This document shows positions 24,649-62,609 of a DNA stretch of 64,000 bases, in pieces (position 1 is the stretch's first letter; the number at the start of each line of letters is the position of its first letter). Under the pieces are notes generated by a model. It ran no database searches, was not told the DNA's origin, and saw nothing but the letters and a program-made list of their open reading frames with translations. The DNA is from an uncultured Dehalococcoidaceae bacterium (GTDB lineage Bacteria; Chloroflexota; Dehalococcoidia; Dehalococcoidales; RBG-16-60-22), in NCBI GenBank assembly GCA_964493435.1, contig CAZBMB010000005.1:70588-134587 (forward strand). Direction: 5' to 3'. The translations under genes and the position numbers were made by a program.

Positions 24649-24654
24649 GCCTCA

Positions 24655-24836
24655 TATAGCAGCAGGAGATACCCGATAAGGGAGCCGAAGGGGAAAGTGG
24701 CCAGGAGTTACGACTCAAGGCCGCGAAACTCTCAGGCAAAAGGACTGCGGTAAATAACACCTCTGGAGAGACCCTTTCAGGGGCACCGAAGGGGCAGCCC
24801 GCCATAAACGGGTGATCTCTCAGGTGAAAGGACAGA
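24655..24836 (+). promoter_or_regulatory. Tandem glycine riboswitch (two aptamers)
   Basis: Aptamer 1: GGAGA...GCCGAAGGGG...CTCTCAGGCAAAAGGAC. Aptamer 2: CTCTGGAGAG...CACCGAAGGGGCA...CTCTCAGGTGAAAGGACAGAG. Located directly upstream of gcvH. Confidence 0.85.
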
Positions 24837-24870
24837 GGGGCTGATCTAGAAAGTAGATTGGCCCCTTTTT
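24837..24870 (+). terminator. Riboswitch expression-platform terminator
   Basis: GGGGCTGATCTA / TAGATTGGCCCC hairpin followed by TTTTT, 33 nt before the gcvH ATG. Confidence 0.6.
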
Positions 24871-25304: not shown

Positions 25305-25324
25305 ACGAGAGGTTATGCGCTTTG

Positions 25325-26629
25325 ATGCATTCACCATATATCCCGAACACAGACCATGACCGCGCCGCCATGCTGCACGACATCGGCGCCGGCTCGGTTG
25401 AGGAGCTTTTCCAGGATGTTCCGGCGGAGTTTCGGAATGTCCGGTTCGACCTGCCGCCGCCACTGACCGAACTGGAGCTTGGCCAGGAATTACGCAGGCT
25501 ATCACGCTTGAATGCCAGCATGGATGAATACGCCTGCTTTCTGGGCGCCGGCTACTACTACCACTTCATTCCCGGCCTTGTCGGTCACATCACCGGGCGC
25601 AGCGAGTTCTACACCGCCTATACTCCCTACCAGGCAGAAGTCAGCCAGGGAATCCTGCAGGCGATATACGAATATCAGTCGCTGGCCTGTCAGCTAACCG
25701 CTATGGACATCAGCAACGCTGGCATGTACGACGGTGCCTCGGCAGCCGCCGAGGCGGCCCTCATGGCCGGACGCATCGCCAGCGGGAAAGAGGTAGCCGT
25801 ACTATCAACGGTTAACCCCGGGTACCGCGAAGTCATCAGCACCTATGTCAGCGGTCAGGATATAACCGTCAATGAGCTGGGGCCAGGTTTCAAAGAAATG
25901 CCCGATAATTGCGTCTGCCTTATCGTACAGCAGCCTAACTTTTTCGGCCATTTTGAAGACGTGGCGGGCTACGCCAGGCTCGCACATGACGCGGGCGCGC
26001 TGTTCGTCGTCATTTTTGACCCGATTTCTCTTGGCCTTTTGCAGCCTCCGGGAAACTATGGCGCGGACATTGCCGTGGCCGAAGGACAGCCACTGGGCAG
26101 CCCGTTGCAATTCGGCGGGCCAGGGCTGGGTATCTTCACCTGCCGCCAGGAACACCTCCGCCAGATGCCGGGCAGGATTGTTGGTCGCACCACCGACGTT
26201 GACGGTCGAACCGGCTACGTGCTCACCATGGCGACACGGGAGCAGCATATACGCCGGGAGCGGGCGACCTCCAACATCTGCACCAACGAAGCCCTGGTGG
26301 CACTCGCCGCCACGGTATATCTGGCGGCCATGGGCGAAAGCGGGGTGCACCGGGTAGCCGAGCTCTGTTACCACAAGGCCCACTATGCGGCCGAAGCGAT
26401 AAAAAAACTGAAAGGCTATTCCCTTGCCTTCAAGCAACCGTTCTTCAAGGAGTTTGTTATCCGCTGTCCCGTGCCGCCCGAAAAAATAAACCGGATACTG
26501 CTTAAGGAAAATATTATCGGCGGTCTTGATGTGAGCCATCTGGTGGGCAATGGCATGCTGCTCTGCGTCACCGAAATGAATTCAAAACAGGAAATAGACC
26601 GCCTCGTTTCCGTTCTGAAAGCGCTATGA
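25325..26629 (+). CDS. gcvPA: Glycine dehydrogenase (decarboxylating) subunit 1
   Basis: About 434 aa, starts [10 protein letters not shown]-protein N-terminal half. An alternative TTG start lies at 25322. Confidence 0.95.
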
Positions 26630-28068
26630 AAAAGGATAAACACCATTTGCTGACGGACCTCAGCCAGACAGGCAAGGTCGGGTGCCGTCTTCCTGGACTT
26701 GATGTGCCTGCCGCCGAACTGCCTCCTCAGGGATTCACGCGCCAGGAAATCCCGCTCCCTGAGGTCAGCGAACCCGAACTGGTGAGATACTTCACCTCCC
26801 TCAGCCAGCGTAATTACGGCGTGGATACCGGATTTTATCCTCTTGGCAGCTGTACCATGAAGTACAACCCGAAATGGCATGAGGATATCGCCCGCCTTGC
26901 CGGATTTCAATCGATTCACCCCTGCCAGTCAATTGATTCGGTACCTGGGGCGTTGCAACTCATGTATGAACTGCAGGGTATGCTGGCCGAAATCACTGGC
27001 ATGGATGCCACCGGTCTGGCACCAATGGCCGGCGCTCAGGGTGAACTGGCCGGCCTGCTGATGGTCAGGGCCTATCATCAGTCGCGCGGTGAAAACCGGC
27101 GACGCAAAATACTGGTGCCGGACTCGGCCCATGGCACCAACCCGGCCACGGCGTCCATGTGTGGCTTTACCGTAGAAACGTTACCGTCCAACGGCAAAGG
27201 CAACCTTGGCTTAGCATCCCTGGAAAATAAGATGAATGAAGAAGTCGCCGCGCTGACGTTGACCATGCCTACCACCCTCGGCCTGTTCGACCCCCATATT
27301 GCCGACATAAGCAACATTATCCATGAAAGAGGTGGACTGCTCATCGGCGATGGCGCCAACCTGAACTCTCTACTGGGCAAGGTGAAGTTCGGCGACCTCG
27401 GTTTCGACTGCGTCCAGTTGAACCTGCACAAGACGTTCAGCACGCCACATGGCGGCGGCGGCCCCGGTTCAGGCCCGGTCTGCGTGAAATCAAACCTGGC
27501 CGATTTCCTGCCAACACCTATTATCACTGATAATAGAAAAGGCCACCGGTTTGCCACTCCTCCGAAGTCAATCGGCCGTCTGGGCGCCGCTTACGGGAAC
27601 TTCGGCGTTATGGTCAAGGCATACGCTTACATACGCTCGCTCGGCACCGAAGGCTTAAAGGAGGTCAGCGAAAACGCGGTGCTCAACGCCAACTACTTGA
27701 AAGAAAAATTGAAGCCGTACTACCACCTGCCCTATGACCGTACCTGCATGCACGAGGTGGTCTTTTCGGGCGTGAAGCAGAAGACTAAAGGAGTTAGTAC
27801 TCTGGACATCGCCAAACGCCTACTAGACTACGGCTTTCACCCACCCACCATCTACTTTCCCCAAGTGGTTGAGGAGGCCATCATGATTGAGCCCACGGAA
27901 ACGGAGAGCAAGGAGACACTTGATGCTTTCATCAAAGCCATGGCCGAAATCGCTACTGAAGTTGAAAAAAGTCCGGAATTATTACACACAGCGCCGCACA
28001 GCACTCCCGTCATAAGGCTGGACGAGGTCAGCGCCGCCCGAAAACCGGACCTGCGATGGAAAATGTGA
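26626..28068 (+). CDS. gcvPB: Glycine dehydrogenase (decarboxylating) subunit 2
   Basis: 480 aa with the PLP-lysine region [16 protein letters not shown]. Overlaps the gcvPA stop by 4 nt. Confidence 0.95.
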
Positions 28069-35132: not shown

Positions 35133-35162
35133 TTGACATTGACGGGGAATAATGTCTAAAAT
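35133..35162 (+). promoter_or_regulatory. Promoter of tubulin-like gene 1
   Basis: ATTGACATT (-35 TTGACA at 35133-35138), 18 nt, TAAAATAAC (-10 at 35157-35162). The same extended boxes occur in front of paralog 2. Confidence 0.5.
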
Positions 35163-35190
35163 AACACAAGTCACAAAATAAGGTATAAAG

Positions 35191-36366
35191 TTGAAATTAA
35201 TTATAGTTGGTTTTGGACAGTGTGGCGGCCGAATTGCTGACGAATTTGCCCGACTGAACCGCAGGGCACATGTTCAACGCGGTATCGATATTGTTGCCAA
35301 CGTCTTCGCCGTCAACACCGATGTTGCCGACCTCAGCGGCCTGACCGGCATCAGAGCCGATTATCACCATCGCATCCTCATTGGTGGCCGTAAGACTGGT
35401 GGCCACGGCGTGGGTAAAATCAACGAGCTGGGCGCGGAGATCGCCAAAGAGGATGGCGATAAGATAATTGAAACGATAAGAACCAGCAAGCGTTTCACGG
35501 AAGCGGATGCGTTCCTGCTCATCGCGGGCGCGGCCGGCGGTACCGGTTCCGGCGCACTTCCCGTAATAACGCAACTGATTAAAGAGCGCTATGTGGATAA
35601 GCCAGTATATAACCTCGTTGTCCTGCCCTTTGAGCATGAAGAAGCCACCGAGGAAAGAACCATATACAATGCAGCTACTTGTCTGAAATCAGCCTATCTG
35701 GTGGCGGACGCCATCTTCCTGGTTGATAACCAGAGATACGTAATGAAAGATGCGTCAATTAGAAGCAACCTAGCCAAAATTAATGCCCTGATTGCTGACC
35801 CATTCTACAATCTGCTCTGCGCCGGCGAGGAAAAAAAGCACCAGTACATCGGGGCGAAGATACTTGATGCCGGAGATATCATACAGACGCTGACCGGGTG
35901 GACAGCCATTGGTTACGGGCGGTCCGAAATCTCATTAGCCAAGAAAATAATGGCCCGTACGCGCGATTTCAGAAACAAGGCCACGGAAGCCCAGAAGGGA
36001 TCCCAGGCCATGGATGAAGCCATCAGTGGACTTTCAATGAAGGTAAATCCGATAGATTCAAAGAGAGCGCTCTATCTGGTTTCTGCCCCGCCCAAAGAAA
36101 TGAATGTCGATCTCATCAAGGAACTCGGCACGTATCTCAAGAGCCTCGCTCCCGAGGCAGTCATAAGAAGCGGTGATTATCCCAGGGAGAAGGGGCTGCT
36201 AGACATCACCGTCATCCTGTCGGAACTCAGTGATGTGGAGAAGGTGAGGAACTACTTTACCAAGACAATCAGCCTCATTACCGCTCTGAAGAAGAGACAG
36301 GAAGGCATTGAAGACAAGTACCGGGGTATAGAGGTCACCCTCAAAGATATACCATCCTTAATTTAA
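35191..36366 (+). CDS. Tubulin/FtsZ-superfamily GTPase, CetZ-like, paralog 1
   Basis: MKLIIVGFGQCGGRIADEF (tubulin/CetZ-type GQxG T1 loop), AGAAGGTGSG (tubulin-signature-like T4 loop), FLVDNQR, LDAGDIIQTL (T7-like), and a C-terminal ...KDIPSLI. TTG start. Confidence 0.8.
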   Translation: MKLIIVGFGQCGGRIADEFARLNRRAHVQRGIDIVANVFAVNTDVADLSGLTGIRADYHHRILIGGRKTGGHGVGKINELGAEIAKEDGDKIIETIRTSKRFTEADAFLLIAGAAGGTGSGALPVITQLIKERYVDKPVYNLVVLPFEHEEATEERTIYNAATCLKSAYLVADAIFLVDNQRYVMKDASIRSNLAKINALIADPFYNLLCAGEEKKHQYIGAKILDAGDIIQTLTGWTAIGYGRSEISLAKKIMARTRDFRNKATEAQKGSQAMDEAISGLSMKVNPIDSKRALYLVSAPPKEMNVDLIKELGTYLKSLAPEAVIRSGDYPREKGLLDITVILSELSDVEKVRNYFTKTISLITALKKRQEGIEDKYRGIEVTLKDIPSLI

Positions 36367-36374
36367 TCCGCAAC

Positions 36375-36418
36375 AACCAATCACGCACAAGTGTATCAGT
36401 CAAGTCAGGAAGTACTCC
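36375..36418 (+). repeat. Left arm of the inverted repeat flanking the small coiled-coil gene
   Basis: AACCAATCAC-5nt-AGTGTATCAGT-6nt-AGGAAGTACTCC. This is the reverse complement of 36962-37010 except for the variable spacers and 1 mismatch in the last block. Confidence 0.75.
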
Positions 36419-36436
36419 GTCGGCTTTCCACCTCAC

Positions 36437-36961
36437 CTATCGAGAAAGCTTGGCGTATATACTCCAAGCCTGAACTACGGTTTCTTCGCGGAGTTGCCAG
36501 GCCCCAGCAAGCGCCTCTTCCCTCCTCTTCTTAGCCTCCTCTATCCGCTCCTCGCACCTCCTCTCCGCCTGTTCTTTTTCCTTCTTGAACGCTCTTTCTG
36601 CCTGCGAAACGGCATCATCACGCGCTTTAAGTGCCGAGGCTAACATCTCATCGCGTGCTTGCATAGCCTCTTTTACCGCTTCATCATGGGCTTTCTCCGC
36701 CTGCTGCTCGGCACGCTTGTAGGCTTTGGCAATTTGTTGCTCATTGGCCCGATAGGCACTGGCCACCTGCCGCTGCGCTTCCATGAAAGCAGCGTAAGCT
36801 CTTTCTGCCTGTCCCAATACCTCCTCAAGCGGCGTAGACGGTTGCGCTTCTACTTCGGCGCTGACCTCTTCCACTTCTTCAGGAACGGCTTCAGCCGCTT
36901 CCTCAACTACTTCTTCGGCTTCCTCATTAACCTTTTTGGCCTGTTCCTTTGGGTTCGCCAT
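36437..36961 (-). CDS. Ala/Glu/Lys-rich coiled-coil protein (174 aa), acidic N-terminus
   Basis: Strong AGGAGGT RBS. Composition-biased helical sequence (AERAYAAFMEAQRQVASAYRANEQQIAKAYKRAEQQAEKAHDEAVKEA...). I recognise no enzymatic motif. Confidence 0.7.
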   Translation of the reverse strand: MANPKEQAKKVNEEAEEVVEEAAEAVPEEVEEVSAEVEAQPSTPLEEVLGQAERAYAAFMEAQRQVASAYRANEQQIAKAYKRAEQQAEKAHDEAVKEAMQARDEMLASALKARDDAVSQAERAFKKEKEQAERRCEERIEEAKKRREEALAGAWQLREETVVQAWSIYAKLSR

Positions 36962-37010
36962 GGAGTACCTCCTGCGTTAATATTACTGATACACTGATTT
37001 GTGATTGGTT
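36962..37010 (-). repeat. Right arm of the inverted repeat (5' leader / RBS of the small coiled-coil gene)
   Basis: On the minus strand: AACCAATCAC-AAATC-AGTGTATCAGT-AATATTAACGC-AGGAGGTACTCC, then ATG. Confidence 0.75.
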
Positions 37011-37023
37011 TTTATATAATCTT

Positions 37024-39195
37024 TTATTCCTCAGTATCTTCATCCTCCTCCTCTACATTATCTTCACCGGCCGGTTCGTCTTTCTTATCCTCATACATCC
37101 GTGCCAGAAAGTTCAAACGTGCTTCTATCTTTTCTTTTCCCTTACCACGAGGCGCCTTTGATTTACCCTTTACATTTGATTCCTTGGCCCTGCCAATTGC
37201 CTGAGCAAAGGCTTTGAGTGTTGCTTCAGCAGTCTCTTCATCAGTTGTTCCAGCTACCTCAGCAACCGGCTCTTCCTCGCGAGATTCCTCTGCCTCACCA
37301 ATAGATTTTTCAAAAGCTTTTAACGATGCGTCAGCTGCTTCCCTCGCCTCATTTCCTTCTGCCTCAACGCGCAGAATGGCCCGCTCAAACGCTCCCATGG
37401 CCGCTTCTGCTGCCTCTTTGGCAACCCGCGTAGTCTCAGCGGTTGCCTCCTTGGCAGCCCGCACCGTGGCTTCAGCAGCCTGTTTAGCTGCCTTCGCAGA
37501 TTCCTTGGTGGTCTTTTTTGTCTCCTGACTTATTGACTCGACCCGACTTATCGCTTCTTCAAAGGCCTTCACCGAGGTTTCGGCAGCCTCTCTGGCAGCT
37601 CTGGTAGCCAGCTTGGTAGCTTCTTTGACCGCTTTAATTGATTCATCAGCCGTATCTTTGGTTTCCTTGCCAATTGCCTCTGCCTTGCTTATTACCTCCT
37701 GGGAGGCTGTGGTCGCCGCCTCGGCGGCTTCTTTGGCAATACGCGTCGCTTCTTCAATCGCTTCCTGAGATGCCTGCGTTGCGGCCTCGTTTGTTTCCCT
37801 GGCTTCTCGTCCAATTTCCTCAGCTCGACTTATTGCCTCCTGAGAGGTACTGGTTGATGCTTCGGCGGCTTCCTGGGCAGTTTTAATCGCTGTTTCCGCG
37901 GCTTCCTGGGTTGCCTGGGCCGAAGTATCAGCGATCTCTTTGGCCTCCTGACTGACCTGTTCAATCTGCGCTATCGCCTCCTCCGAGGCACGGGCCGATG
38001 CTTCAGCCCTCTCCTGCGTAGTCGTAACCGCGTCCTCTGCCCGCCTCAACGTCTCCACGCTCATCTTATCAACCCGCTCCAGCGCTGTCTCAAAGGTCCT
38101 GACCAGTTTATCATGCGCGGCTTGTATCTCATCTCTTACCGCTTCGGCACGACTGATTGCTTCCTGAGACTCTCTTGACGATGCGTCAGCGGCTTCTTTG
38201 GAGGCAGCGATTGCCGCGTCAACAGCCTCCCTGGTAGCCATGGTAGCTTCCTCTATCGCTGCCCTGTTTTCCAGGCTTATTGCCTCAGCTCTATTTATAG
38301 CTTCCTTTGAAGCCTTGGCGGAATTCGCGGCCGCCAGCTTGGTATCCTTGCTAATCGCCTCGGCACGAACCATTGCTTCCTGCGATGTTCTCAATGAGGT
38401 CTCGGCAAGCCCCTTGGCATCGGTGCTGATTTTATCCGCCCGGAACGCCACTTCCTTAGCCGCTTTTGACGCTGCCTCGGACATTTCCTTTGTTGTCTGG
38501 CTGGCTCTCTCCGCCCTGATGGCAGCCGCTCTGGCTTCCCTTAGCGATGCTCCTGTAGCTATTTGGGCATCATGGCTCACCTTCTCTGCCTTGCCGGAAG
38601 CTTCCTTGGCAGCCTTAATGGATTCCTCAGCCGCTTCTTTGGCAAGCCGACCAGCTTCTTCAGCCTTGTCAAGTTCCTCTTTAGCTGCTTTAGCCGCAGA
38701 CCCAGCAACCTCCCTAGCCTCAGCAGTTATTTCAGTGACCCGAGTCAGCCCTTCTTCTGAAGCAACGTATGCCGCCTCCGCCGCTTCCATGGCCTCTTTG
38801 CTTATCTCCTCGGCACGATTTATGGCTTCCTGAAAACGCTTGGTGATTGCTTTGGCGGCTTCTTTTGGAGTACGCGCTGTTTCCTCAGCCCGTCTTATCG
38901 CCTCTTCAGCGGCAGCAATAGCAGCATCCGCGCTTTCCCGCACCTCCCGGTTGACCTCATCCGCACGCTTTATCGCCTCTTCGGCAGCTTTTCTGGCGGC
39001 GTCGGCAGCTTCTTTTGCCTCCAGGCTGATCTGCTCGGCACGCTTTATCGCTTTCTGAGCAGCAACGGTGGTCGACCCAGCCGCCTCCATAGCGGCACGA
39101 CTCAGCTGTTCCGCCCGGGCAACAGCCTTCTCAAAGGCGCCGATTTCTTGCTCAGCGCTATCCAGTACTTCACGCGATGGTGCTTCTCTCGCCAT
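37024..39195 (-). CDS. Large Ala/Glu-rich repeat coiled-coil protein (about 723 aa) with a basic patch and an acidic C-terminal tail
   Basis: More than 20 recurrences of an (E/K)A(I/L)x(R/K)(A/V)(E/D)x(I/V)(S/G) unit. C-terminus reads KGKSKAPRGKGKEKIEARLNFLARMYEDKK...EDNVEEEDEDTEE. ATG at 39195 (GAGG upstream), with an alternative GTG at 39204. Confidence 0.8.
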   Translation of the reverse strand: MAREAPSREVLDSAEQEIGAFEKAVARAEQLSRAAMEAAGSTTVAAQKAIKRAEQISLEAKEAADAARKAAEEAIKRADEVNREVRESADAAIAAAEEAIRRAEETARTPKEAAKAITKRFQEAINRAEEISKEAMEAAEAAYVASEEGLTRVTEITAEAREVAGSAAKAAKEELDKAEEAGRLAKEAAEESIKAAKEASGKAEKVSHDAQIATGASLREARAAAIRAERASQTTKEMSEAASKAAKEVAFRADKISTDAKGLAETSLRTSQEAMVRAEAISKDTKLAAANSAKASKEAINRAEAISLENRAAIEEATMATREAVDAAIAASKEAADASSRESQEAISRAEAVRDEIQAAHDKLVRTFETALERVDKMSVETLRRAEDAVTTTQERAEASARASEEAIAQIEQVSQEAKEIADTSAQATQEAAETAIKTAQEAAEASTSTSQEAISRAEEIGREARETNEAATQASQEAIEEATRIAKEAAEAATTASQEVISKAEAIGKETKDTADESIKAVKEATKLATRAAREAAETSVKAFEEAISRVESISQETKKTTKESAKAAKQAAEATVRAAKEATAETTRVAKEAAEAAMGAFERAILRVEAEGNEAREAADASLKAFEKSIGEAEESREEEPVAEVAGTTDEETAEATLKAFAQAIGRAKESNVKGKSKAPRGKGKEKIEARLNFLARMYEDKKDEPAGEDNVEEEDEDTEE

Positions 39196-39393
39196 CAACC
39201 TCACACCAAATTGTTTTACACAATTCTAATATACGTTTACTATATTTTCAACATTTTTTATTAAGTCAAGAATTCTTCCAGATAATATTTGGGCAATCAT
39301 TGACTTCACCACAGTCTTATTTTTACTCTCCCCCGACGTTATTACCAGATACTTTATTACTACGTTTATCAGTACCTCCCTAAAGCGCAGAGA

Positions 39394-39423
39394 TTGACAT
39401 TATACTACAAGTGTGTTTAAAAT
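39394..39423 (+). promoter_or_regulatory. Promoter of tubulin-like gene 2
   Basis: ATTGACATT (-35 at 39394-39399), 18 nt, TAAAATAAC (-10 at 39418-39423), within an AT-rich 250-bp divergent intergenic region. Confidence 0.5.
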
Positions 39424-39457
39424 AACTAAACTCTATAATTTTCATCAGAGGTGGGCT

Positions 39458-40636
39458 ATGAAACTAGTAGTCGTAGGTTTCGGACAGTGTGGTGGTCGAA
39501 TTGCTGACGAGTTTGCCCGTTTGAACAAGAAAGCTAAAAGCCAGCGTGGCATTGAGATAGTCACCGGTTGCTACGCGGTCAATGCCGATGCGGCTGACCT
39601 GAGCGGTCTCACCAGCATCAAAAAGGATTACCAGCATAGGATCCTCATCGGTAGTCGCAAGACAGGCGGCCACGGCGTGGGTAAGATAAACGAACTCGGC
39701 GCTGAGATCGCCCGAGAGGATGGCGATAAGGTAATCGACGCGATAAGAACCACAAAACGTTTCTTTGAGACAGATGCCTTCCTGTTTATTGCCAGTGCCG
39801 CCGGTGGCACCGGTTCCGGGTCAGTCTCAGTGATGACGCAGCACATAAAAGAAAGATATGTCGATAAGCCTATTTACAATCTCATCGTCCTTCCCTTTGA
39901 ACATGAGGAAACCACCGAGGACCGAACCATGTATAATACCGCCACCTGTTTAAAGTCCTCATACTCCGTGGCTGACGCCGTATTTCTGGTGGACAACCAG
40001 AGATTCGTACGCAAGGATTCTTCTATCAAAGGTAATATTTCCAAAATCAACGCCATGATTGCGGAGCCGTTCTACAACATGCTGTGTGCCGGCGAGGAAA
40101 AGAAAGCCAAGTACATTGCCTCAAAGGTGCTTGATGCCGGCGATATTATCCAGACGCTGGTTGGCTGGACGGTAATCGGCTACGGTAAGTCGGATATCCC
40201 TCTAATCAGGTTCCGTCGCGAATCAAGGCGTGATTTCAGGGCTAAAGGAGATGAGACCTTAAAGGGCATCCAGGCCATGGATGAAGCCATAAGCGAGCTG
40301 TCACTGAAATGCAATCCTGTTGATTCCAAGAGATCTCTTTACCTCATCTCGGCGCCGGGCAAAGAGATGAACATGGACATGGTTAAAGCTCTCGGGGATT
40401 ATATGAGGGATATTGCACCGGAAGCCCTTATCAGAAACGGCGATTATCCACGTGAAAGAGGCGTGCTTGATGTTACCGTAATCCTGTCCGAACTCAGTGA
40501 TGTGGAAAAGGTGCGAACTTACTATACCCAGTCCACCCAGCTTATCCCCGAGTTCAAGAAGCGACAGGAAGAAACCGAAGTCAAACTGAGAGCCATAGAA
40601 GACGCCTCCAAAGACATCCCGTCCCTGCTCTCTTAA
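39458..40636 (+). CDS. Tubulin/FtsZ-superfamily GTPase, CetZ-like, paralog 2
   Basis: MKLVVVGFGQCGGRIADEF, ASAAGGTGSG, FLVDNQR, LDAGDIIQTL, and a C-terminal ...KDIPSLLS. About two-thirds identical to paralog 1 by eye. The ATG at 39458 has a GAGGTG RBS; the track start at 39413 adds 15 unconserved residues. Confidence 0.8.
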   Translation: MKLVVVGFGQCGGRIADEFARLNKKAKSQRGIEIVTGCYAVNADAADLSGLTSIKKDYQHRILIGSRKTGGHGVGKINELGAEIAREDGDKVIDAIRTTKRFFETDAFLFIASAAGGTGSGSVSVMTQHIKERYVDKPIYNLIVLPFEHEETTEDRTMYNTATCLKSSYSVADAVFLVDNQRFVRKDSSIKGNISKINAMIAEPFYNMLCAGEEKKAKYIASKVLDAGDIIQTLVGWTVIGYGKSDIPLIRFRRESRRDFRAKGDETLKGIQAMDEAISELSLKCNPVDSKRSLYLISAPGKEMNMDMVKALGDYMRDIAPEALIRNGDYPRERGVLDVTVILSELSDVEKVRTYYTQSTQLIPEFKKRQEETEVKLRAIEDASKDIPSLLS

Positions 40637-40653
40637 AGCGCTATAGACCTGGC

Positions 40654-40711
40654 AAGCCAGCTTTGCGGCGGAAGAAAAAAATTCGGCTGAGCAAAGCTGG
40701 CTTTTTATTTT
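40654..40711 (+). terminator. Rho-independent terminator after tubulin-like gene 2
   Basis: 13-bp stem AAGCCAGCTTTGC (40654-40666) / GCAAAGCTGGCTT (40691-40703) running into TTTTTATTTT. Confidence 0.7.
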
Positions 40712-58373: not shown

Positions 58374-59759
58374 CTACAGGTAAGGCGAGGTAAGTGGCAG
58401 TTTTAAACCAAATTGCCTGGTGAACTGCTGCCTCATCTTCCGGTAGAACTCGATGCACTCCTTATTCGGCGTTCCGGCAGCGATATCAAAATAGTCCGGC
58501 AGCTTTTTACCCAGCGGCGGGTCTTTCAGCTTGTCCTCGTAATAGCCCAGCAGAGTCGCCACCATTTTGTTGGCTTCTTTCCGGCTCATACCGGCTGACG
58601 CGTGAGCGACGGCATTGCTGAAAATATTCTCAATCGGGTCGCTGTAATCCTCCATAACGCCTCTTGCCGGAGGGCCCACCTCCACAGAACCACCGGATAC
58701 CACCGTCGCCATCACCCAGGCAGCAAATTCGTAGTAACACATTTCGGTCATAGGGCCGGCCGAGGTATAGCCGGGAGCAACAATGGGCAACGGGCTGTGA
58801 CGCGTCGCTGCCTGAATACCCAGGCACCGGGACCAGATGGCTCCCCTTATGGATGTCGTGCCACCTTCAACGGGCACCACCAGCGGGTGCTGAGCCACAC
58901 CGCGTATGACCAGCAGGGCCAGGGGATGGTATGCCGCACAGACTACCGCTACCCCCGCCGGGCCACCGGCAAAACCCCCCAGAATCAGGCCATTCTCGGC
59001 AAAAGTCCGGTTTCCCACCGCCTGACAGTAGGCCACCTTGTTCAGGGCATCAAAGTCAATCTTCAGCTCATGAATGGTGCCGATTTCCAGAGCATCGGTT
59101 CTGGGGTCGCCGAAGGTATGGCCGGTAATATGCTCCGTCGCCCTCACTGCCGAGGCCACTTCATTTACCACCGGCATTCCCGGACGCCCGGCGCGGCGCA
59201 GCGCTTCCCGTACCAGAAGCACCGTCCTGATGGCGCCTTCCACACCCCGTGGACTGCCGGCGACCAGGTCCCGGCCGTCAAGGTTGGTCAGGCATGGTGC
59301 CGTAATACCATCGGACAGCGGGTCCTCGGCATAAGCCTTGACGACATTTATCAGGTTCCACTCCGTAGATACCGGGCCTGCTCCGCAGCCGGAGCACCAG
59401 GGAGGTGTTTCATCTTCGGGGGTACGTCTCGGCATCAACCTTGAATCTTTGCCGTACCCGTACACCACATTACGTGGCGCTGACTCCAGCGCACCCTCTA
59501 TCTCTTCTCTGGAAAACAGCATGCGCCTCTCCGTATCGACGCAGTAGACACCGGTCTCCACCAGAAACTCCATGCCCGCTTCCCAGACACGGTCGGCAAG
59601 GTCGTCATCGGCGGGCACCGGGTTCTGAGGGTCATATTTGATACCGTACTTCTCAATTACCTTACGCAGGTTGGGCACGAAAATATCCAGGTCAAAATCC
59701 CGCTCCGTGCATATCGGCCCGCTAAGTGCTCTCTCCACTACTTGATCAAAACTGAGCAT
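58374..59759 (-). CDS. MtmB-like (monomethylamine methyltransferase family) protein without pyrrolysine, copy 1
   Basis: 461 aa uninterrupted ORF. Colinear from memory with methanogen MtmB (AGMEFLVETGVYCVDTERR; AGRPGMPVVNE, where MtmB has GRPGMGV-Pyl-GPE). Confidence 0.75.
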   Translation of the reverse strand: MLSFDQVVERALSGPICTERDFDLDIFVPNLRKVIEKYGIKYDPQNPVPADDDLADRVWEAGMEFLVETGVYCVDTERRMLFSREEIEGALESAPRNVVYGYGKDSRLMPRRTPEDETPPWCSGCGAGPVSTEWNLINVVKAYAEDPLSDGITAPCLTNLDGRDLVAGSPRGVEGAIRTVLLVREALRRAGRPGMPVVNEVASAVRATEHITGHTFGDPRTDALEIGTIHELKIDFDALNKVAYCQAVGNRTFAENGLILGGFAGGPAGVAVVCAAYHPLALLVIRGVAQHPLVVPVEGGTTSIRGAIWSRCLGIQAATRHSPLPIVAPGYTSAGPMTEMCYYEFAAWVMATVVSGGSVEVGPPARGVMEDYSDPIENIFSNAVAHASAGMSRKEANKMVATLLGYYEDKLKDPPLGKKLPDYFDIAAGTPNKECIEFYRKMRQQFTRQFGLKLPLTSPYL

Positions 59760-59817
59760 TATTATTCTCCGCCATATTATTTATGTATCTCACCCTGGCT
59801 CCTTTCCTTTATGTCAA

Positions 59818-61203
59818 TCACACGTATGGCGAGGTGAGCGGCATTTTAAGCCCGAACTTATCCATCATCTCGCTTCTCATTTTTCGGTAGAGCTCAAGGC
59901 ATTCCTTTTTAGGTGTTCCAGAAACGATGTCAAAGTAATCCTGGAATTTGGTGCCAGCTGGCGAGTTGTTCAGCTTGTCCTCATAGCTGTCAAGGAGTGC
60001 TGAGACAATCCTGTTGGCTTCTTTCCGGCTCATACCAGCGACGGCGTGCGCCACCGCATTGCCGAAGATTTCCTCTATGGGGCCACTATGGTCAACAACA
60101 ACACCCCGGGACGGAGGAGCGATCTCAATGGAACCGCCGGGAACCACGGAAGCGATTATCCCCGCCGCATACTCGTAGTAGCACATCTCAGTCATCGGCC
60201 CGGCCACCGTATATACCGGAGTCACCATCGGCAGAGGGCTGTTGCGGGCCGTCGCCTGATTGGCCACGCTTCTGGCCCAGATTGTTTCCCGGTTAGAAGT
60301 CGTACCACGTTCAATAGGTACCGCGAAGGGATGTTGAGCCACCCCACGTATGACCAGCAGGTCCACCGGATTATAGGCGGCGCTGACCACGGCAACACCA
60401 GCGGGGCCACCGGCAAAGCCTCCCAGAATCACGCCGTTTTCGGCGAAAGTCAGGTTTCCCACAGCCTGGCAATACGCCACCTTGTTCAGGGCATCAAAAT
60501 CGACCTTAAGCTCATGCATGGTACCGATTTCCAGGAAATCTGTGCTCGGATTCCCGAAGCTGTGCCCGGCTATATGTTCTGTGGCCCGTATTGCTGAAGC
60601 TACCTCGTTGACCACCGGCATCCCCGGACGCCCGGCGCGGCGCAGCGCTTCCCGTACCAGAAGCACCGTCCTGATGGCGCCTTCAACCCCTCGCGGGCTG
60701 CCGGCGACCAAGTCCCGGCCGTCCAGATTGGTCAGGCACGGCGCTGTAATACCATCGGACAGCGGGTCTTCAGCGTAGGTCTTGACGATATTGATGAGGT
60801 TCCACTCTGTAGACACCGGCCCTGCCCCCGAACCCGAGCACCAGGGTGGCGTCGCGTCTTCAGGCAGACGCCGTGGCATCTCTCGGGCGTCTTTCCCTTC
60901 ACCGAATATCACTTTGCGGGGGCAGGACTCCAGCGCCCCCTCTATTTCCTCGCGGGAGAATAGGATTCGTCGCTCGGTATCAAGGCAGTAGACTCCGGTC
61001 TCCACCAGGAATTCCATGCCCGCTTCCCAGACCCTGTCCGCCAGGTCGTCATCGGCGGGCACCGGGTTCTGGGGGTCATACTTGATATCATATTTTTCAA
61101 TCGCTCTGCGCAAATTGGGCACTAAAATACCCAGGTCAAAGTCACGTTCCGTGCATATCGGCCCGCTAAGTGCTCTCTCTACTACTTCATCAAAGCTGAG
61201 CAT
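59818..61203 (-). CDS. MtmB-like protein without pyrrolysine, copy 2
   Basis: 461 aa, very similar to copy 1 and sharing a 62-nt identical DNA run (60623-60684 versus 59179-59240). Confidence 0.75.
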   Translation of the reverse strand: MLSFDEVVERALSGPICTERDFDLGILVPNLRRAIEKYDIKYDPQNPVPADDDLADRVWEAGMEFLVETGVYCLDTERRILFSREEIEGALESCPRKVIFGEGKDAREMPRRLPEDATPPWCSGSGAGPVSTEWNLINIVKTYAEDPLSDGITAPCLTNLDGRDLVAGSPRGVEGAIRTVLLVREALRRAGRPGMPVVNEVASAIRATEHIAGHSFGNPSTDFLEIGTMHELKVDFDALNKVAYCQAVGNLTFAENGVILGGFAGGPAGVAVVSAAYNPVDLLVIRGVAQHPFAVPIERGTTSNRETIWARSVANQATARNSPLPMVTPVYTVAGPMTEMCYYEYAAGIIASVVPGGSIEIAPPSRGVVVDHSGPIEEIFGNAVAHAVAGMSRKEANRIVSALLDSYEDKLNNSPAGTKFQDYFDIVSGTPKKECLELYRKMRSEMMDKFGLKMPLTSPYV

Positions 61204-61220
61204 GATTCTTCTCCGGTATT

Positions 61221-62609
61221 CTATAGATAAGGCGAAGCGCTGGTGAACTTAATGCCGAACTGGTCAGTTATCTCCCGTCTGATTTCAAGATACAGCTTCA
61301 GAAATTCTTGGTTCGGCTGGCCGGTTACCGGGTCGCAGCATTCCTGGTATTTCTGCCCAATCGGAGGTTCACGAAGCTGCGATTCATATTTCTCCAGCAG
61401 CGCCTTCAGGATATCATTGGCTTCTTTGCGGCCCATGCCGACCACAGCGTGTGCCACCTCGCTGGCCAGGAGAGGCTCCACCGGGCTGGTGTAGTCAAGG
61501 GCAGTACCTCTTGCCGAGGCTCCAACTTCAACTGAGCCGCCGGAGACCACCGAGGCGATAACCCAGGCGCAGTGCTCATAGAAAAGCATCTTGGTCATCG
61601 GGCCGGCGGCCGAATAGCCGACGTTAACCACCGGCAGGGTGCTGTTCCGCGTGACCGCCTGGTTGGACACGCTACGCGCCCAGACGGTGTCCCGTGCTGA
61701 GGTAACGCCAAGATCGAAATGGGTTGGGAAGGGGTGTTGCACGGCACCGCGCAGGATCAGCAGGTCCACCGGATTGTAGGCCGCCGTCACCACCGCCACG
61801 CCAGCCGGTCCGCCAGCCAGCCCGCCCAGAATGACCCCGTTCTCGGCAAAAATCAGGTTGCCAGCGGCCTGCGAAAAGGCTACCTTGTTCATGGTGTCAA
61901 AATCGACCTTCATCTCATGTATGGTACCGATTTCCAGCGCATCCGACCTGCGGATGCCAAAATAATGGGCGGCGATGTGCTCCTGAGCCCTGGCGGCGGT
62001 GGTAACACCGTTGACGATGGGCATCCCCGGACGGCCAGCACGGCGCATACCCTCACGAGTTAGCAATACCGCTCTGATGGCGCCCTCTATCCCCAGCGGG
62101 CTGCCACCCACTATCGGCTGCCCATTCACCTGAGTTAAACAGGGTATGGTGATGCCGTCCCCCAGTGGATTTTCGGCATGTGCTTTGACCAGGTTTACGT
62201 AGTGCAACTCCGAGGAAAGCGGTGAGGAGGTGGGGCCAACCGAACACCACGGCGGCAGGGTGTCTTCCGGAAAACGCCGTGGCATGACCCGGGTATCCTT
62301 GCCCTCACCAAAGACACGACCACACGGACCCGACGCCAGCGCGCCGTCTATCTCCTCGCGGCTGAAGAGAATCCGCCGCTCGGTATCAACGCAGTAGACA
62401 CCGGTCTCCCCCAGGAATTCCAGGCCCGCTTCCCAGACCCTGTCCGCCAGGTCATCGTCGGCGGGCACGGGATTTTCAGAGTCATATTTAATACCGTACT
62501 TCTCAATTACTTTACGCAAATTGGGCACTAAAATACCCAGGTCAAAATCTCGTTCCGTGCATATCGGGCCGCTTAGTGCCCTCTCCACAACCGTCCAGAA
62601 ACTTAACAT
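61221..62609 (-). CDS. MtmB-like protein without pyrrolysine, copy 3 (most diverged)
   Basis: 462 aa with the same N-terminal MLSF..VVERALSGPICTERDFDL, AGRPGMPIVNG, and a C-terminal ...SPYL. Confidence 0.75.
   Translation of the reverse strand: MLSFWTVVERALSGPICTERDFDLGILVPNLRKVIEKYGIKYDSENPVPADDDLADRVWEAGLEFLGETGVYCVDTERRILFSREEIDGALASGPCGRVFGEGKDTRVMPRRFPEDTLPPWCSVGPTSSPLSSELHYVNLVKAHAENPLGDGITIPCLTQVNGQPIVGGSPLGIEGAIRAVLLTREGMRRAGRPGMPIVNGVTTAARAQEHIAAHYFGIRRSDALEIGTIHEMKVDFDTMNKVAFSQAAGNLIFAENGVILGGLAGGPAGVAVVTAAYNPVDLLILRGAVQHPFPTHFDLGVTSARDTVWARSVSNQAVTRNSTLPVVNVGYSAAGPMTKMLFYEHCAWVIASVVSGGSVEVGASARGTALDYTSPVEPLLASEVAHAVVGMGRKEANDILKALLEKYESQLREPPIGQKYQECCDPVTGQPNQEFLKLYLEIRREITDQFGIKFTSASPYL

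What the first reader, a model, noticed from the sequence alone, without database searches (positions are those of the whole stretch)
35133..40711. Chromosomal four-gene module: two CetZ-like tubulin-superfamily GTPases bracketing two coiled-coil repeat proteins (candidate undescribed bacterial cytoskeletal system)
Seen: two ORFs (35191-36366 and 39458-40636) are about two-thirds identical to each other. Both carry MKL(I/V)(I/V)VGFGQCGGRIADEF, which is a tubulin/CetZ-style GQxG T1 loop and not the FtsZ GGGGxN. Both also carry AAGGTGSG (tubulin-signature-like T4 loop), FLVDNQR and LDAGDIIQTL (T7-like). Between them, on the opposite strand, lie a 174-aa and a ~723-aa Ala/Glu/Lys-rich helical protein. 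Each GTPase gene has its own near-identical promoter, and the unit ends in a strong terminator. Established: these motifs define the tubulin/FtsZ superfamily. From memory the overall pattern (GFGQ.GG, AVNT..ADL, GHGVG...ELGAEIA.ED, DAF..., GGTGSG, VLP, V.DN) matches archaeal CetZ cell-shape proteins much better than FtsZ. Non-FtsZ tubulin homologs in bacteria (BtubAB, TubZ/PhuZ) are rare and mostly on mobile elements. The flanking genes here (gap, eno, ligA, dnaX-ybaB-recR, recO) are bacterial housekeeping genes, and no mobile-element genes are nearby. Inference: a chromosomally fixed filament system in which the coiled-coil proteins act as scaffolds, membrane tethers or regulators of a heteromeric or alternating GTPase polymer, possibly tied to cell shape or division.
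Basis: partly seen in the sequence, partly recalled or inferred. Interest (0 to 1): 0.9.

Follow-up and report, generated by a model that had tools for sequence, protein, structure and literature searches.

The report
Bacterial CetZ-like cytoskeleton gene module
A wall-less sediment bacterium (Dehalococcoidales) carries two strongly conserved copies of CetZ, a tubulin-like filament protein usually described as archaea-only, flanking two long coiled-coil proteins, which makes this a likely but uncharacterised bacterial cytoskeletal system.

Summary
Two paralogous GTPases (391 and 392 aa, 71% identical) flank two acidic helical proteins (174 and about 723 aa) on the opposite strand.

Both GTPases pass Pfam cut-offs for Tubulin (PF00091) and CetZ_C (PF21011), and both fail the FtsZ equivalog (65 and 48 bits against a cut-off of 295). 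Their best PDB relatives are Haloferax CetZ1 and CetZ2, by sequence (E = 1.7e-40) and by predicted fold (pLDDT 91.9, TM 0.93).

The window comes from a Dehalococcoidales bacterium. The order gap–A–ccS–ccL–B–dnaX is kept in about 45 species-level genomes. The GTPases are under stronger purifying selection (dN/dS 0.02) than GAPDH, and ccS and ccL are also constrained (0.11 and 0.14).

Lineages with one CetZ-like gene (D. mccartyi, Dehalogenimonas and others) lack the coiled-coil genes. Duplication and partners therefore go together.

Prior knowledge is thin: one sentence in Santana-Molina 2023, and UniRef already labels the D. mccartyi ortholog "Tubulin-like protein CetZ". The module itself appears undescribed.

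The most likely function is a GTP-dependent filament system with dedicated coiled-coil partners that shapes or organises peptidoglycan-free cells. That function is inferred, not shown.

Verdict: a new variant of a known kind, interest about 0.6.

The parts
35133..35162 (+). Promoter-like site of the GtpA gene (TTGACA, 18-nt spacer, TAAAAT)
   Evidence: It matches 11 of 12 consensus positions. The same core and flanks occur upstream of GtpB, and the site is conserved 25-35 nt upstream of A orthologs in 53 of 60 loci.
35191..36366 (+). CetZ-like tubulin-superfamily GTPase, paralog A (391 aa, TTG start). This is the derived, faster-evolving copy.
   Evidence: Pfam Tubulin scores 118 bits and CetZ_C 64 bits, both above their cut-offs. 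The best PDB sequence match is HvCetZ1 at E = 1.7e-40. The AF2 model has pLDDT 91.9, and its Foldseek match to 4b46 has TM 0.93. dN/dS is 0.021. The A clade is monophyletic in 42 of 50 bootstraps.
36437..36961 (-). ccS: an acidic 174-aa protein predicted to form one long helix, with conserved AY and AW motifs
   Evidence: Orthologs of 159-189 aa occur in 55 loci, with 16 invariant residues. dN/dS is 0.114. The single-sequence AF2 model has a continuous helix over residues 45-173, pLDDT 91. Hydrophobic periodicity is 3.65 residues and pI is 4.84. No Pfam, NCBIfam or PDB relatives were found.
37024..39195 (-). ccL: an acidic coiled-coil protein of about 723 aa built from degenerate 25-residue repeats, with a conserved N-terminal segment and a conserved C-terminal helix. 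The mechanical ORF extends to a GTG at 39204.
   Evidence: Residues 15-339 form 13 phase-coherent 25-residue repeats with core spacing 3-4-3-4-3-4-4. Periodicity is 3.6 residues, there is no TM segment, and pI is 4.86. The conserved ends are FEKAVARAEqLSRaA and RLe.LarMYE.Kk. dN/dS is 0.140. Ortholog lengths range from 520 to 823 aa.
39223..39251 (-). Promoter-like site for the ccL-ccS transcription unit, divergent from the GtpB promoter
   Evidence: TTGAAA, 17-nt spacer, TAGAAT; 10 of 12 matches. This is a consensus match only.
39394..39423 (+). Promoter-like site of the GtpB gene (TTGACA, 18-nt spacer, TAAAAT)
   Evidence: It matches 11 of 12 positions and shares its core with the GtpA promoter. 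It is conserved in other genomes.
39458..40636 (+). CetZ-like tubulin-superfamily GTPase, paralog B (392 aa). This is the ancestral-type copy, closest to the single-copy genes of Dehalogenimonas and other single-copy lineages.
   Evidence: Pfam Tubulin scores 113 bits and CetZ_C 56 bits. It is 71% identical to A. dN/dS is 0.021. B is not separable from the single-copy genes in bootstraps.
40654..40711 (+). Intrinsic terminator that closes the module
   Evidence: A perfect 13-bp stem followed by a T-run. Folding energy is -29.4 kcal/mol, z = -3.83.

Best explanation
This is a chromosomal CetZ-type cytoskeletal module in a Dehalococcoidales bacterium.

Shown:
- Both GTPases are full-length CetZ-family proteins. 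Each has a Tubulin GTPase domain, a CetZ_C domain, an H11 helix and a hydrophobic C-terminal tail.
- Both have intact GTP-binding loops and an intact T7 catalytic loop.
- All four genes are under purifying selection and are kept together across the lineage.

Inferred:
- A and B each polymerise head-to-tail in a GTP-dependent way. They are co-expressed from matching promoters.
- They differ mainly on the M-loop and the H11 outer surface. In tubulin and in CetZ1 these surfaces mediate lateral contacts and partner binding. The two paralogs therefore either co-assemble or build distinct filaments with different partners.
- The two acidic rod-like coiled-coil proteins are transcribed divergently from the GtpB promoter region. 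They probably act as dedicated filament-associated partners (bundlers, spacers or scaffolds) of the basic GTPases.
- The invariant C-terminal peptide KDIPSLL is the counterpart of the LESLF tail that CetZ1 needs for function. It is the likely docking or assembly element.
- The cellular role is most likely control of cell shape or envelope organisation. These cells have no peptidoglycan and are bounded by a membrane and an S-layer, much like the archaea in which CetZ1 drives the disc-to-rod transition.
For: Family assignment:
- Pfam Tubulin and CetZ_C both score above their cut-offs.
- The FtsZ equivalog TIGR00065 scores only 65 and 48 bits against a cut-off of 295.
- PDB phmmer gives CetZ1 1.7e-40, CetZ2 8.6e-31 and M. 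thermophila CetZ 1.4e-14. The best FtsZ is 6e-12 and tubulins are about 1e-5.
- The AF2 model has pLDDT 91.9, and the top three Foldseek hits are the three CetZ structures.

Catalytic competence:
- LDAGDIIQT (T7) and GGTGSG (T4) are invariant in both clades.
- The CetZ1 T7-loop residue E218 aligns with D229.

Tail:
- KDIPSLL is invariant in the A clade, the B clade and the single-copy genes.
- Mutating the CetZ1 tail LESLF to AESGG abolishes rod formation (bioRxiv 10.1101/2024.04.08.588506).

Functional unit:
- The synteny holds in about 45 genomes.
- From the ccS side, 58 of 64 testable loci have the convergent GTPase and 47 of 52 have ccL.
- Lineages with one GTPase lack ccS and ccL: D. mccartyi, Dehalogenimonas, L061 and P0134.

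Selection: dN/dS is 0.021 for each GTPase, 0.114 for ccS and 0.140 for ccL, against 0.078 for gap.

Charge complementarity: pI is 8.7 and 8.1 for the GTPases, against 4.84 and 4.86 for ccS and ccL.

A-B divergence is concentrated in the M-loop (52% identity) and H11 (56%), against 77% in the GTPase domain.

Shape link:
- Dehalococcoidales lost peptidoglycan, and D. mccartyi cells are irregular discs with an S-layer (PMC10284905).
- In D. mccartyi the tubulin-like protein and a neighbouring hypothetical protein drop in abundance when cells adopt an aberrant barrel shape. A separate FtsZ exists in that organism (PMC8163811).
Against: - There is no experimental evidence for polymerisation, for a GTPase-coiled-coil interaction or for a shape phenotype in any bacterium.
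- The D. mccartyi proteomic correlation also involves FtsZ. It comes from a lineage that lacks ccS and ccL.
- Gene adjacency and co-origin suggest, but do not prove, physical partnership.
- A subclade (L049, L055, L056) has ccL but no detectable ccS, so ccS is dispensable. A few ccS-like genes live elsewhere.
- The 25-residue ccL repeat (about 3.7 nm) does not match the 4.2-nm CetZ subunit repeat, so a simple one-repeat-per-subunit ruler model does not fit.
Confidence: 0.6

Rival explanations
1. The pair acts as a division-related second FtsZ-type system. The CetZ-like GTPases would take part in cytokinesis alongside canonical FtsZ. The precedent is wall-less archaea that need two FtsZ paralogs for ring assembly and constriction. 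The coiled-coil proteins would then be Zap- or EzrA-like ring organisers.
For: - Public sources overwhelmingly annotate the family as 'cell division protein FtsZ'.
- In D. mccartyi the tubulin-like protein and FtsZ fall together when cells divide abnormally (PMC8163811).
- Peptidoglycan-free cells cannot use septal wall synthesis for constriction (PMC10284905).
- Many known FtsZ regulators are coiled-coil proteins (established knowledge).
Against: - Sequence, domain architecture and fold are CetZ-like, not FtsZ-like.
- The characterised archaeal CetZ proteins act in shape and motility (abstracts listed: PMC13556191, PMC11621097).
- The genes sit between gap and dnaX, not with division genes.
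- The 'FtsZ' labels are automatic annotations.
Confidence: 0.2
2. The GTPases are a CetZ-like cytoskeleton, but ccS and ccL are functionally unrelated neighbours. They could be a stress-protective or storage-type helical protein operon, or an independent intermediate-filament-like scaffold, that happened to insert between the two copies and was then inherited as a block.
For: - ccS and ccL are on the opposite strand with their own promoter-like site.
- They evolve much faster than the GTPases.
- ccS is missing in one subclade, and ccS-like paralogs occur elsewhere next to regulator-like genes.
- Ala/Glu/Lys-rich amphipathic repeats also occur in LEA- and apolipoprotein-like proteins (from my own knowledge, not tested).
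Against: - The arrangement has survived with synonymous divergence near saturation (dS about 1-3) in about 45 genomes, in a lineage where the flanks do rearrange (for example L057, L048, L050).
- ccL is found only where two GTPases are present, and it is absent from all four single-copy contexts examined.
- In the one rearranged locus (L050) the four genes still stay together.
Confidence: 0.13
3. The module is a TubZ/PhuZ-like DNA-segregation or mobile-element partition system that became fixed in the chromosome.
For: - Most non-FtsZ bacterial tubulin homologs are on plasmids or phages (established knowledge).
- Pfam Tubulin_2, the TubZ-type model, gives a weak sub-threshold hit of 19.9 bits against a cut-off of 27.
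- A distant bacterial CetZ-like gene (the P0147 group) sits among IS elements.
Against: - The same housekeeping slot (gap | dnaX) is occupied in D. mccartyi, Dehalogenimonas (gap side only in L060) and the window lineage, which indicates vertical inheritance.
- The window has no integrase, transposase, TubR-like or centromere features.
- There are no close relatives on viral contigs and no defence-system match.
- G+C content is unremarkable.
Confidence: 0.03

Closest known systems
Archaeal CetZ (Haloferax volcanii CetZ1 and CetZ2, PDB 4B46 and 4B45; Methanosaeta thermophila CetZ, PDB 3ZID)
   Same: - The domain architecture is the same: Tubulin GTPase domain plus CetZ_C.
- They are the best sequence and fold matches, at 28-29% identity and TM 0.91-0.93.
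- The T1 loop is of the GQxGG type.
- A T7 acidic residue aligns with CetZ1 E218.
- There is a long C-terminal H11 helix.
- A short hydrophobic C-terminal tail is present (IPSLL here, LESLF in CetZ1).
- Multiple paralogs occur per genome.
- The host cells lack peptidoglycan and are S-layer-bounded.
   Different: - The host is bacterial, whereas CetZ is described as archaea-specific (PMC9856176, PMC11621097).
- The proteins form a clade separate from archaeal CetZ (91 of 100 NJ bootstraps).
- The proteins are basic rather than acidic.
- The M-loop is short, without the CetZ1 LLSRL protrusion.
- The neighbourhood holds dedicated coiled-coil genes. Archaeal cetZ genes instead lie near pili, F420 or sugar-epimerase genes (PMC9856176).
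Single-copy CetZ-like genes of Dehalococcoides mccartyi and Dehalogenimonas
   Same: These are orthologs at 60-66% identity. D. mccartyi holds its gene in the same gap | dnaX chromosomal slot, and Dehalogenimonas places it directly after gap. They share the KDIPSLL-type tail. The D. mccartyi protein is expressed and abundant (PMC8163811).
   Different: There is only one gene and no ccS or ccL. D. mccartyi instead has a DUF2089 / small ORF / SHOCT-like trio downstream. Dehalogenimonas has a two-component system there.
Bacterial FtsZ with its coiled-coil regulators (ZapA, ZapB, EzrA, SepF)
   Same: It belongs to the same superfamily fold (TM about 0.82). It forms GTP-dependent protofilaments. 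A conserved C-terminal peptide docks partner proteins, and coiled-coil proteins organise the polymer (established knowledge).
   Different: The window proteins fail the FtsZ equivalog model. They have GQCGG instead of a GGGGxN T1 loop, a CetZ_C domain instead of an FtsZ_C domain, and no link to the division gene cluster.
BtubA/BtubB with BtubC of Prosthecobacter, and eukaryotic alpha/beta-tubulin with MAPs
   Same: Two adjacent paralogous tubulin-superfamily genes are accompanied by a non-GTPase partner gene. The concept of a polymer plus associated proteins is the same.
   Different: Sequence similarity is far lower (E about 1e-5) and there is no Tubulin_C domain. Here both paralogs keep the catalytic T7 residues, unlike beta-tubulin. 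No evidence exists for an obligate heterodimer.
Coiled-coil-rich cytoskeletal proteins (crescentin, FilP and Scy of Streptomyces)
   Same: These are long Ala/Glu-rich rods with a non-heptad periodicity. ccL has 25/7 and ccS about 11/3. Scy is known for a 51-residue repeat (from my own knowledge).
   Different: There is no detectable homology. The only match is ccS to NCBIfam Scy at 16.6 bits against a cut-off of 1040, which is compositional.

Membership tests
CetZ (tubulin-superfamily, Pfam PF00091 + PF21011) | Tubulin/FtsZ GTPase domain with a GGTGSG signature (T4 loop) | tested here: met
   PF00091 scores 118 and 113 bits against a cut-off of 33. GGTGSG is invariant in both clades.
CetZ (tubulin-superfamily, Pfam PF00091 + PF21011) | CetZ-specific C-terminal domain (CetZ_C) | tested here: met
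   PF21011 scores 63.7 and 56.5 bits against a cut-off of 21.6, covering 175 of 180 profile positions. It is found in 58 of 59 relatives.
CetZ (tubulin-superfamily, Pfam PF00091 + PF21011) | Solved CetZ structures are the closest relatives, by sequence and by fold | tested here: met
   By phmmer, 4b46, 4b45 and 3zid rank 1 to 3. By Foldseek, the same three rank 1 to 4 with TM 0.81-0.93, ahead of every FtsZ.
CetZ (tubulin-superfamily, Pfam PF00091 + PF21011) | T7-loop acidic residue for GTP hydrolysis in the polymer (CetZ1 E218) | tested here: met
   D229 aligns with E218, and LDAGDIIQT is invariant in A and B. Catalysis itself was not tested.
CetZ (tubulin-superfamily, Pfam PF00091 + PF21011) | Conserved short hydrophobic C-terminal tail required for function | tested here: met
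   KDIPSLL is invariant, and similar tails occur across distant relatives. The CetZ1 LESLF tail is required for rod formation. The functional requirement in this system was not tested.
CetZ (tubulin-superfamily, Pfam PF00091 + PF21011) | Placement inside the archaeal CetZ clade, and archaeal host ('archaea-specific') | tested here: not met
   The host is a Dehalococcoidales bacterium. In an NJ tree the bacterial-type clade separates from the clade holding HvCetZ1, HvCetZ2 and the Nitrososphaerales sequences in 91 of 100 bootstraps. It is therefore best called CetZ-like, or a bacterial sister subfamily. The method was NJ only and the rooting is weak.
CetZ (tubulin-superfamily, Pfam PF00091 + PF21011) | Role in cell-shape control or motility | not testable with these tools
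   Only a proteomic correlation in D. mccartyi is available (PMC8163811).
Canonical FtsZ | Passes the FtsZ equivalog model (TIGR00065), with a GGGGxN T1 loop and an FtsZ_C domain | tested here: not met
   The scores are 65.1 and 48.3 bits against a cut-off of 295.2. The T1 loop is GQCGG. The C-terminal half matches CetZ_C, and no FtsZ_C hit was reported.
Canonical FtsZ | Located in the division / cell-wall gene cluster | tested here: not met
   The genes lie between gap and dnaX-ybaB-recR.
TubZ / PhuZ (plasmid and phage tubulins) | Passes Pfam Tubulin_2, in a mobile-element context with a DNA-binding adaptor | tested here: not met
   PF13809 scores 19.9 and 16.5 bits against a cut-off of 27. 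There are no mobile-element genes in the flanks and no relatives on viral contigs.
Tubulin / BtubAB | Tubulin_C domain and close similarity to alpha/beta-tubulin | tested here: not met
   No Tubulin_C hit was reported. BtubB and tubulins match at E about 5e-5, and only over the GTPase domain.
Coiled-coil-rich cytoskeletal proteins (ccS and ccL considered as members) | Long uninterrupted helical rod with coiled-coil periodicity | tested here: met
   The ccS model is a continuous helix over residues 45-173 (single sequence). ccL has 13 in-phase 25-residue repeats with 3-4 core spacing and a 3.6-residue periodicity.
Coiled-coil-rich cytoskeletal proteins (ccS and ccL considered as members) | Homology to a named family (crescentin, FilP/Scy, DivIVA and others), or nucleotide-independent self-assembly | tested here: not met
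   Only sub-threshold compositional hits were found in Pfam and NCBIfam, and nothing in PDB. Self-assembly cannot be tested here.

The most novel reading that the evidence does not exclude
A and B form an obligate mixed polymer, either alternating subunits or paired A and B protofilaments. Its outer surface (M-loop and H11) is decorated by the acidic coiled-coil proteins ccS and ccL. This would be a bacterial counterpart of an alpha/beta-tubulin lattice with MAP-like partners. It would have arisen by duplication after Dehalococcoidales lost peptidoglycan, and it would serve as the main internal shape-determining skeleton of these S-layer-bounded cells.
Probability: 0.2. Interest if true: 0.85.

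Novelty: new variant of a known kind. Interest (0 to 1): 0.62.

Why it matters
CetZ is treated in the field as an archaea-specific third branch of the tubulin superfamily. Here it is a vertically inherited, very strongly constrained family in bacteria. The bacterial family is also abundant: the homolog search returned more than 6,000 hits at E <= 1e-5 among the 8,000 candidates it scored.

The bacterial lineage involved has converged on an archaeal-style envelope, with no peptidoglycan and an S-layer. That gives a natural test of the idea that CetZ-type filaments are a solution for shaping wall-less, S-layer-bounded cells.

No dedicated partner proteins of archaeal CetZ turned up in the papers I read, so the co-inherited coiled-coil pair offers concrete candidates for CetZ-binding partners.

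The module also gives a second, independent case of a duplicated tubulin-family pair whose divergence lies on lateral and outer surfaces. That is relevant to how alpha/beta-type specialisation begins.

On the practical side, thousands of database entries labelled 'cell division protein FtsZ' in Dehalococcoidia are mis-named.

Tried and rejected
- Searching ccS against the 5.8-billion-protein collection returned nothing, probably because of its composition. I replaced it with tblastn on the fetched loci and with a DNA-pattern scan of metagenomes.
- The ccS profile against PDB sequences gave only chance-level hits.
Only a single-sequence model was obtained, so it should be read cautiously.
- A membrane-targeting helix at the ccL C-terminus was considered. 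The hydrophobic moment is low (0.15-0.24) and there is no TM segment, so the idea is not supported.
- A one-repeat-per-subunit ruler was considered. Twenty-five residues span about 3.7 nm, against a 4.2-nm CetZ1 longitudinal repeat, so there is no match.
- ccS and ccL are not detectably related to each other.
- No DNA-level tandem repeats underlie the ccL repeats.
- No anti-phage defence model matches. The viral-contig scan failed with the alignment as query, and a second scan with the single GtpB protein found no relatives.
- The first bootstrap run was invalid because of NaN distances. It was redone.
- The taxonomy of two intermediate CetZ-like groups (P0137-P0142 and P0147-P0174) could not be established.
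- No supplementary tables are held for the D. mccartyi proteomics paper. The identity of btf_0548 as the SHOCT-like gene is therefore my inference from gene order.

Full report
**1. The observation**

- GtpA: 35191-36366 (+), 391 aa.
- GtpB: 39458-40636 (+), 392 aa.
- ccS: 36437-36961 (-), 174 aa.
- ccL: 37024-39204 (-), 726 aa from a GTG. The likely start is the ATG at 39195, giving 723 aa, as called on the identical public contig L001.

The two GTPases are 71% identical over their full length without gaps, and both carry all the quoted motifs.

Each GTPase gene is preceded by the same promoter-like core: TTGACA, an 18-nt spacer, then TAAAAT, matching 11 of 12 positions. The flanks ATTGACATT and TGTyTAAAATAAC are also shared. 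The design recurs upstream of the orthologs in many other genomes.

A perfect 13-bp hairpin plus T-run follows GtpB. Its folding energy is -29.4 kcal/mol, z = -3.8.

The flanks are housekeeping genes: glycine cleavage P-protein subunit genes (gcvP-type), a lipoate ligase, ligA, pth, a LOG-like gene, eno and gap on one side, and dnaX, ybaB, recR, recO, lysyl- or aspartyl-type and seryl-tRNA synthetases and corA on the other. No mobile-element genes are present. G+C content is unremarkable.

**2. What the GTPases are**

Both pass the curated Pfam thresholds for the Tubulin/FtsZ GTPase domain (118 and 113 bits) and for the CetZ C-terminal domain PF21011 (64 and 56 bits). Both fail the NCBIfam FtsZ equivalog by a wide margin, at 65 and 48 bits against a cut-off of 295.

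Against all PDB sequences, the three best hits are the three solved CetZ structures:
- H. volcanii CetZ1, 4B46: E = 1.7e-40, full length.
- H. volcanii CetZ2, 4B45: E = 8.6e-31.
- M. thermophila CetZ, 3ZID: E = 1.4e-14.

The best FtsZ scores 6e-12, and tubulins, BtubB and TubZ score about 1e-5.

An AlphaFold2 model built from a 59-sequence alignment is confident (pLDDT 91.9, pTM 0.89). Foldseek again ranks CetZ1 first (TM 0.93, rmsd 1.9 A), then CetZ2 and M. thermophila CetZ, ahead of every FtsZ (TM about 0.82).

Both were tested, and neither holds.

**3. The organism and how widespread this is**

The closest homologs (up to 98% identity) come from Dehalococcoidia and Dehalococcoidales metagenome-assembled genomes. 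They are mostly annotated 'cell division protein FtsZ' or 'tubulin/FtsZ family protein'.

An exhaustive HMMER scan of 1.84 billion cluster representatives found 77 representatives below 1e-30. Representatives at 43-53% identity that carry a source name are still Dehalococcoidia; most carry none. At about 33% identity, the named hits are archaeal (Nitrososphaerales, Bathyarchaeia).

In a neighbour-joining tree, the Dehalococcoidia sequences and two taxonomically unassigned groups separate from the clade holding HvCetZ1, HvCetZ2 and the Nitrososphaerales sequences in 91 of 100 bootstraps. This was NJ only with a distant FtsZ root, so 'sister to archaeal CetZ' and 'nested within it' remain open.

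**4. The four-gene module is a conserved unit**

Sixty-six loci were fetched from species-representative genomes. Essentially every contig long enough shows gap - A(+) - ccS(-) - ccL(-) - B(+) - dnaX - ybaB - recR, down to A orthologs at about 66-72% identity.

The reverse test started from ccS in metagenomes. There, 58 of 64 testable loci have the convergent GTPase and 47 of 52 have ccL upstream.

A and B orthologs fall into two groups in the NJ tree. The A clade is monophyletic in 42 of 50 bootstraps. B cannot be separated from the single-copy genes of Dehalogenimonas and L061 (1 of 50). B is therefore the ancestral-type copy and A the derived one.

The chromosomal slot is older than the module. 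D. mccartyi has ligA-pth-LOG-eno-gap | one CetZ-like gene | DUF2089, a small ORF and a SHOCT-like gene | dnaX-ybaB-recR. Dehalogenimonas has gap | one CetZ-like gene | a two-component system. Two deeper Dehalococcoidia lineages have a lone gene beside the nuo operon. None of these single-copy contexts has ccS or ccL.

The duplication and the coiled-coil genes therefore appear together. That is the strongest comparative argument that they work together.

Variants exist:
- One subclade has ccL but no detectable ccS (L049, L055, L056).
- One genome has B-like and A-like genes in tandem followed by ccS and ccL (L050).
- Six ccS-like paralogs sit elsewhere, most of them next to a response-regulator-like gene and all but one near an HTH-like gene.

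**5. Selection**

Values are for the window against L004, where dS is about 1.0-1.3.

| Gene | dN/dS |
|---|---|
| GtpA | 0.021 |
| GtpB | 0.021 |
| gap | 0.078 |
| dnaX | 0.103 |
| ccS | 0.114 |
| ccL | 0.140 |

All four module genes are real coding genes. The GTPases are more constrained than a glycolytic enzyme, as expected for a polymer whose surfaces are nearly all interfaces.

**6. Anatomy relevant to mechanism**

About half of all alignment columns (193) are invariant in both paralog clades, including GGTGSG and the T7 segment LDAGDIIQT. In the alignment, the CetZ1 T7-loop residue E218 corresponds to D229. Both paralogs are therefore predicted to be catalytically complete. This differs from the alpha/beta-tubulin asymmetry.

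Divergence between A and B is concentrated in the M-loop region (52% identity) and the H11 helix (56%). The GTPase domain is at 77% and the tail at 86%. Only ten positions are fixed differently in the two clades, and most lie in the C-terminal domain and H11. In tubulin and in CetZ1, these surfaces mediate lateral association and partner binding.

The last seven residues, KDIPSLL, are invariant in the A clade, the B clade and the single-copy genes. Many distant relatives end in similar peptides. H. volcanii CetZ1 ends in LESLF, and changing it to AESGG abolishes rod development (bioRxiv 10.1101/2024.04.08.588506).

**7. The coiled-coil proteins**

ccS has an acidic N-terminal segment followed by one predicted uninterrupted helix, residues 45-173, about 19 nm long. 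This is a single-sequence model with pLDDT 91. Its hydrophobic periodicity is 3.65 residues, and it has 16 invariant residues, including recurring AY and AW pairs.

ccL begins with 13 in-phase 25-residue repeats, consensus EAAeaa.kAA.EAi.RAEeiS.eAk. The core spacing is 3-4-3-4-3-4-4, which is three heptads plus a stutter. More degenerate repeats follow. The N-terminal segment and the C-terminal helix are conserved, while length varies from 520 to 823 aa.

Neither protein has a TM segment or any family or PDB match. They are not related to each other. Both are acidic (pI about 4.85), whereas the GTPases are basic (pI 8.1-8.7).

**8. Most likely function**

Shown: a CetZ-family pair and two rod-like proteins are inherited and constrained as a unit.

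Inferred: GTP-dependent filaments with dedicated coiled-coil partners.

The cellular role I consider most likely is control of shape or envelope organisation. Three lines point that way:
- Dehalococcoidales lost peptidoglycan. Cultivated members are irregular discs or cocci with S-layers (PMC10284905). This is the envelope type in which CetZ1 drives the disc-to-rod transition in Haloferax.
- D. mccartyi has a separate canonical FtsZ (btf_0595) alongside the tubulin-like protein (btf_0551).
- That tubulin-like protein and a neighbouring hypothetical protein are abundant in normal disc-shaped cells and reduced in aberrant barrel-shaped cells (PMC8163811).

A division-related role is the main rival. 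The same proteomic data also show a drop in FtsZ.

**9. Prior knowledge and novelty**

Reviews call CetZ archaea-specific (PMC9856176, PMC11621097).

Santana-Molina et al. [quoted passage not shown] UniRef labels the D. mccartyi protein 'Tubulin-like protein CetZ'. The CetZ-likeness of these bacterial proteins is therefore already on record.

Five full-text searches found no description of the retained paralog pair, the coiled-coil partners, the conserved slot or any functional work.

I rate this a new variant of a known kind, with interest about 0.6. It is a clear lead for cytoskeleton evolution and for finding CetZ partners, but it is neither categorically new nor functionally demonstrated.

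Noticed in passing
window 58374-62609 (-): Three tandem paralogs of 461-462 aa all match Pfam MtmB (monomethylamine methyltransferase) at 270-301 bits over the full length, and each is an uninterrupted ORF. From my own knowledge, methanogen mtmB carries an in-frame amber codon for pyrrolysine, so these look like non-pyrrolysine MtmB homologs in a Dehalococcoidales bacterium.
   Followed up: partly
window 24653-24840 (+): A tandem pair of glycine riboswitch aptamers (55.6 and 52.9 bits) lies upstream of the glycine-cleavage P-protein genes at 25322-26629 and 26626-28068. This is an ordinary arrangement.
   Followed up: partly
L122 4048-4566, L124 2350-2871, L134 4063-4584, L142 11-412, L143 3694-4203, L145 1697-2215: ccS-like genes (49-66% identity over the best segment) occur outside any CetZ module. 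Most sit next to a CheY-like response-regulator ORF, and all but L145 lie near an HTH-like ORF; small membrane-protein ORFs flank some of them. The neighbour assignments are by eye from the translations. ccS therefore has paralogs with a possibly different role.
   Followed up: partly
L068 8001-10305 and L069 8001-10305: A distant bacterial-type CetZ-like gene (418 aa, about 38% identity; cluster of 65 members) is paired with a downstream 327-aa protein that has an N-terminal TM segment and no Pfam match. The same gene pair appears in two different IS-, resolvase- and OrfB_IS605-rich surroundings, so it may be mobile there. The host taxon is unknown.
   Followed up: partly
L152/L153 9384-10480: In D. 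mccartyi the position taken by ccS, ccL and GtpB in the window is occupied by three small genes: a DUF2089 gene, an 89-94-aa ORF and a SHOCT-like DUF2089-C gene. By gene order, one of them is probably the abundant 'hypothetical protein btf_0548' reported to fall together with the tubulin-like protein.
   Followed up: no
upstream of GtpA orthologs in many of loci L024-L066, e.g. L033, L041, L063: In the more distant subclade, the spacer between the -35 and -10 hexamers of the A-gene promoter is itself conserved (ATTGCGGAATTGCGTAAAAT). The window's subclade has a different conserved spacer (GGAAATAATGYC). Conserved spacers suggest a regulator binding site that overlaps the promoter.
   Followed up: no
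L154 6001-11312: Another divergent CetZ-like gene (P0142, 403 aa, ending in GLPSLLETEED) is followed directly by two tandem FtsH-type AAA + peptidase M41 genes.
   Followed up: no
window 35191: GtpA starts with TTG in the window and in three other loci. Most A orthologs (54 of 60) start with ATG at the same position. This may lower translation of A relative to B in this lineage.
   Followed up: no
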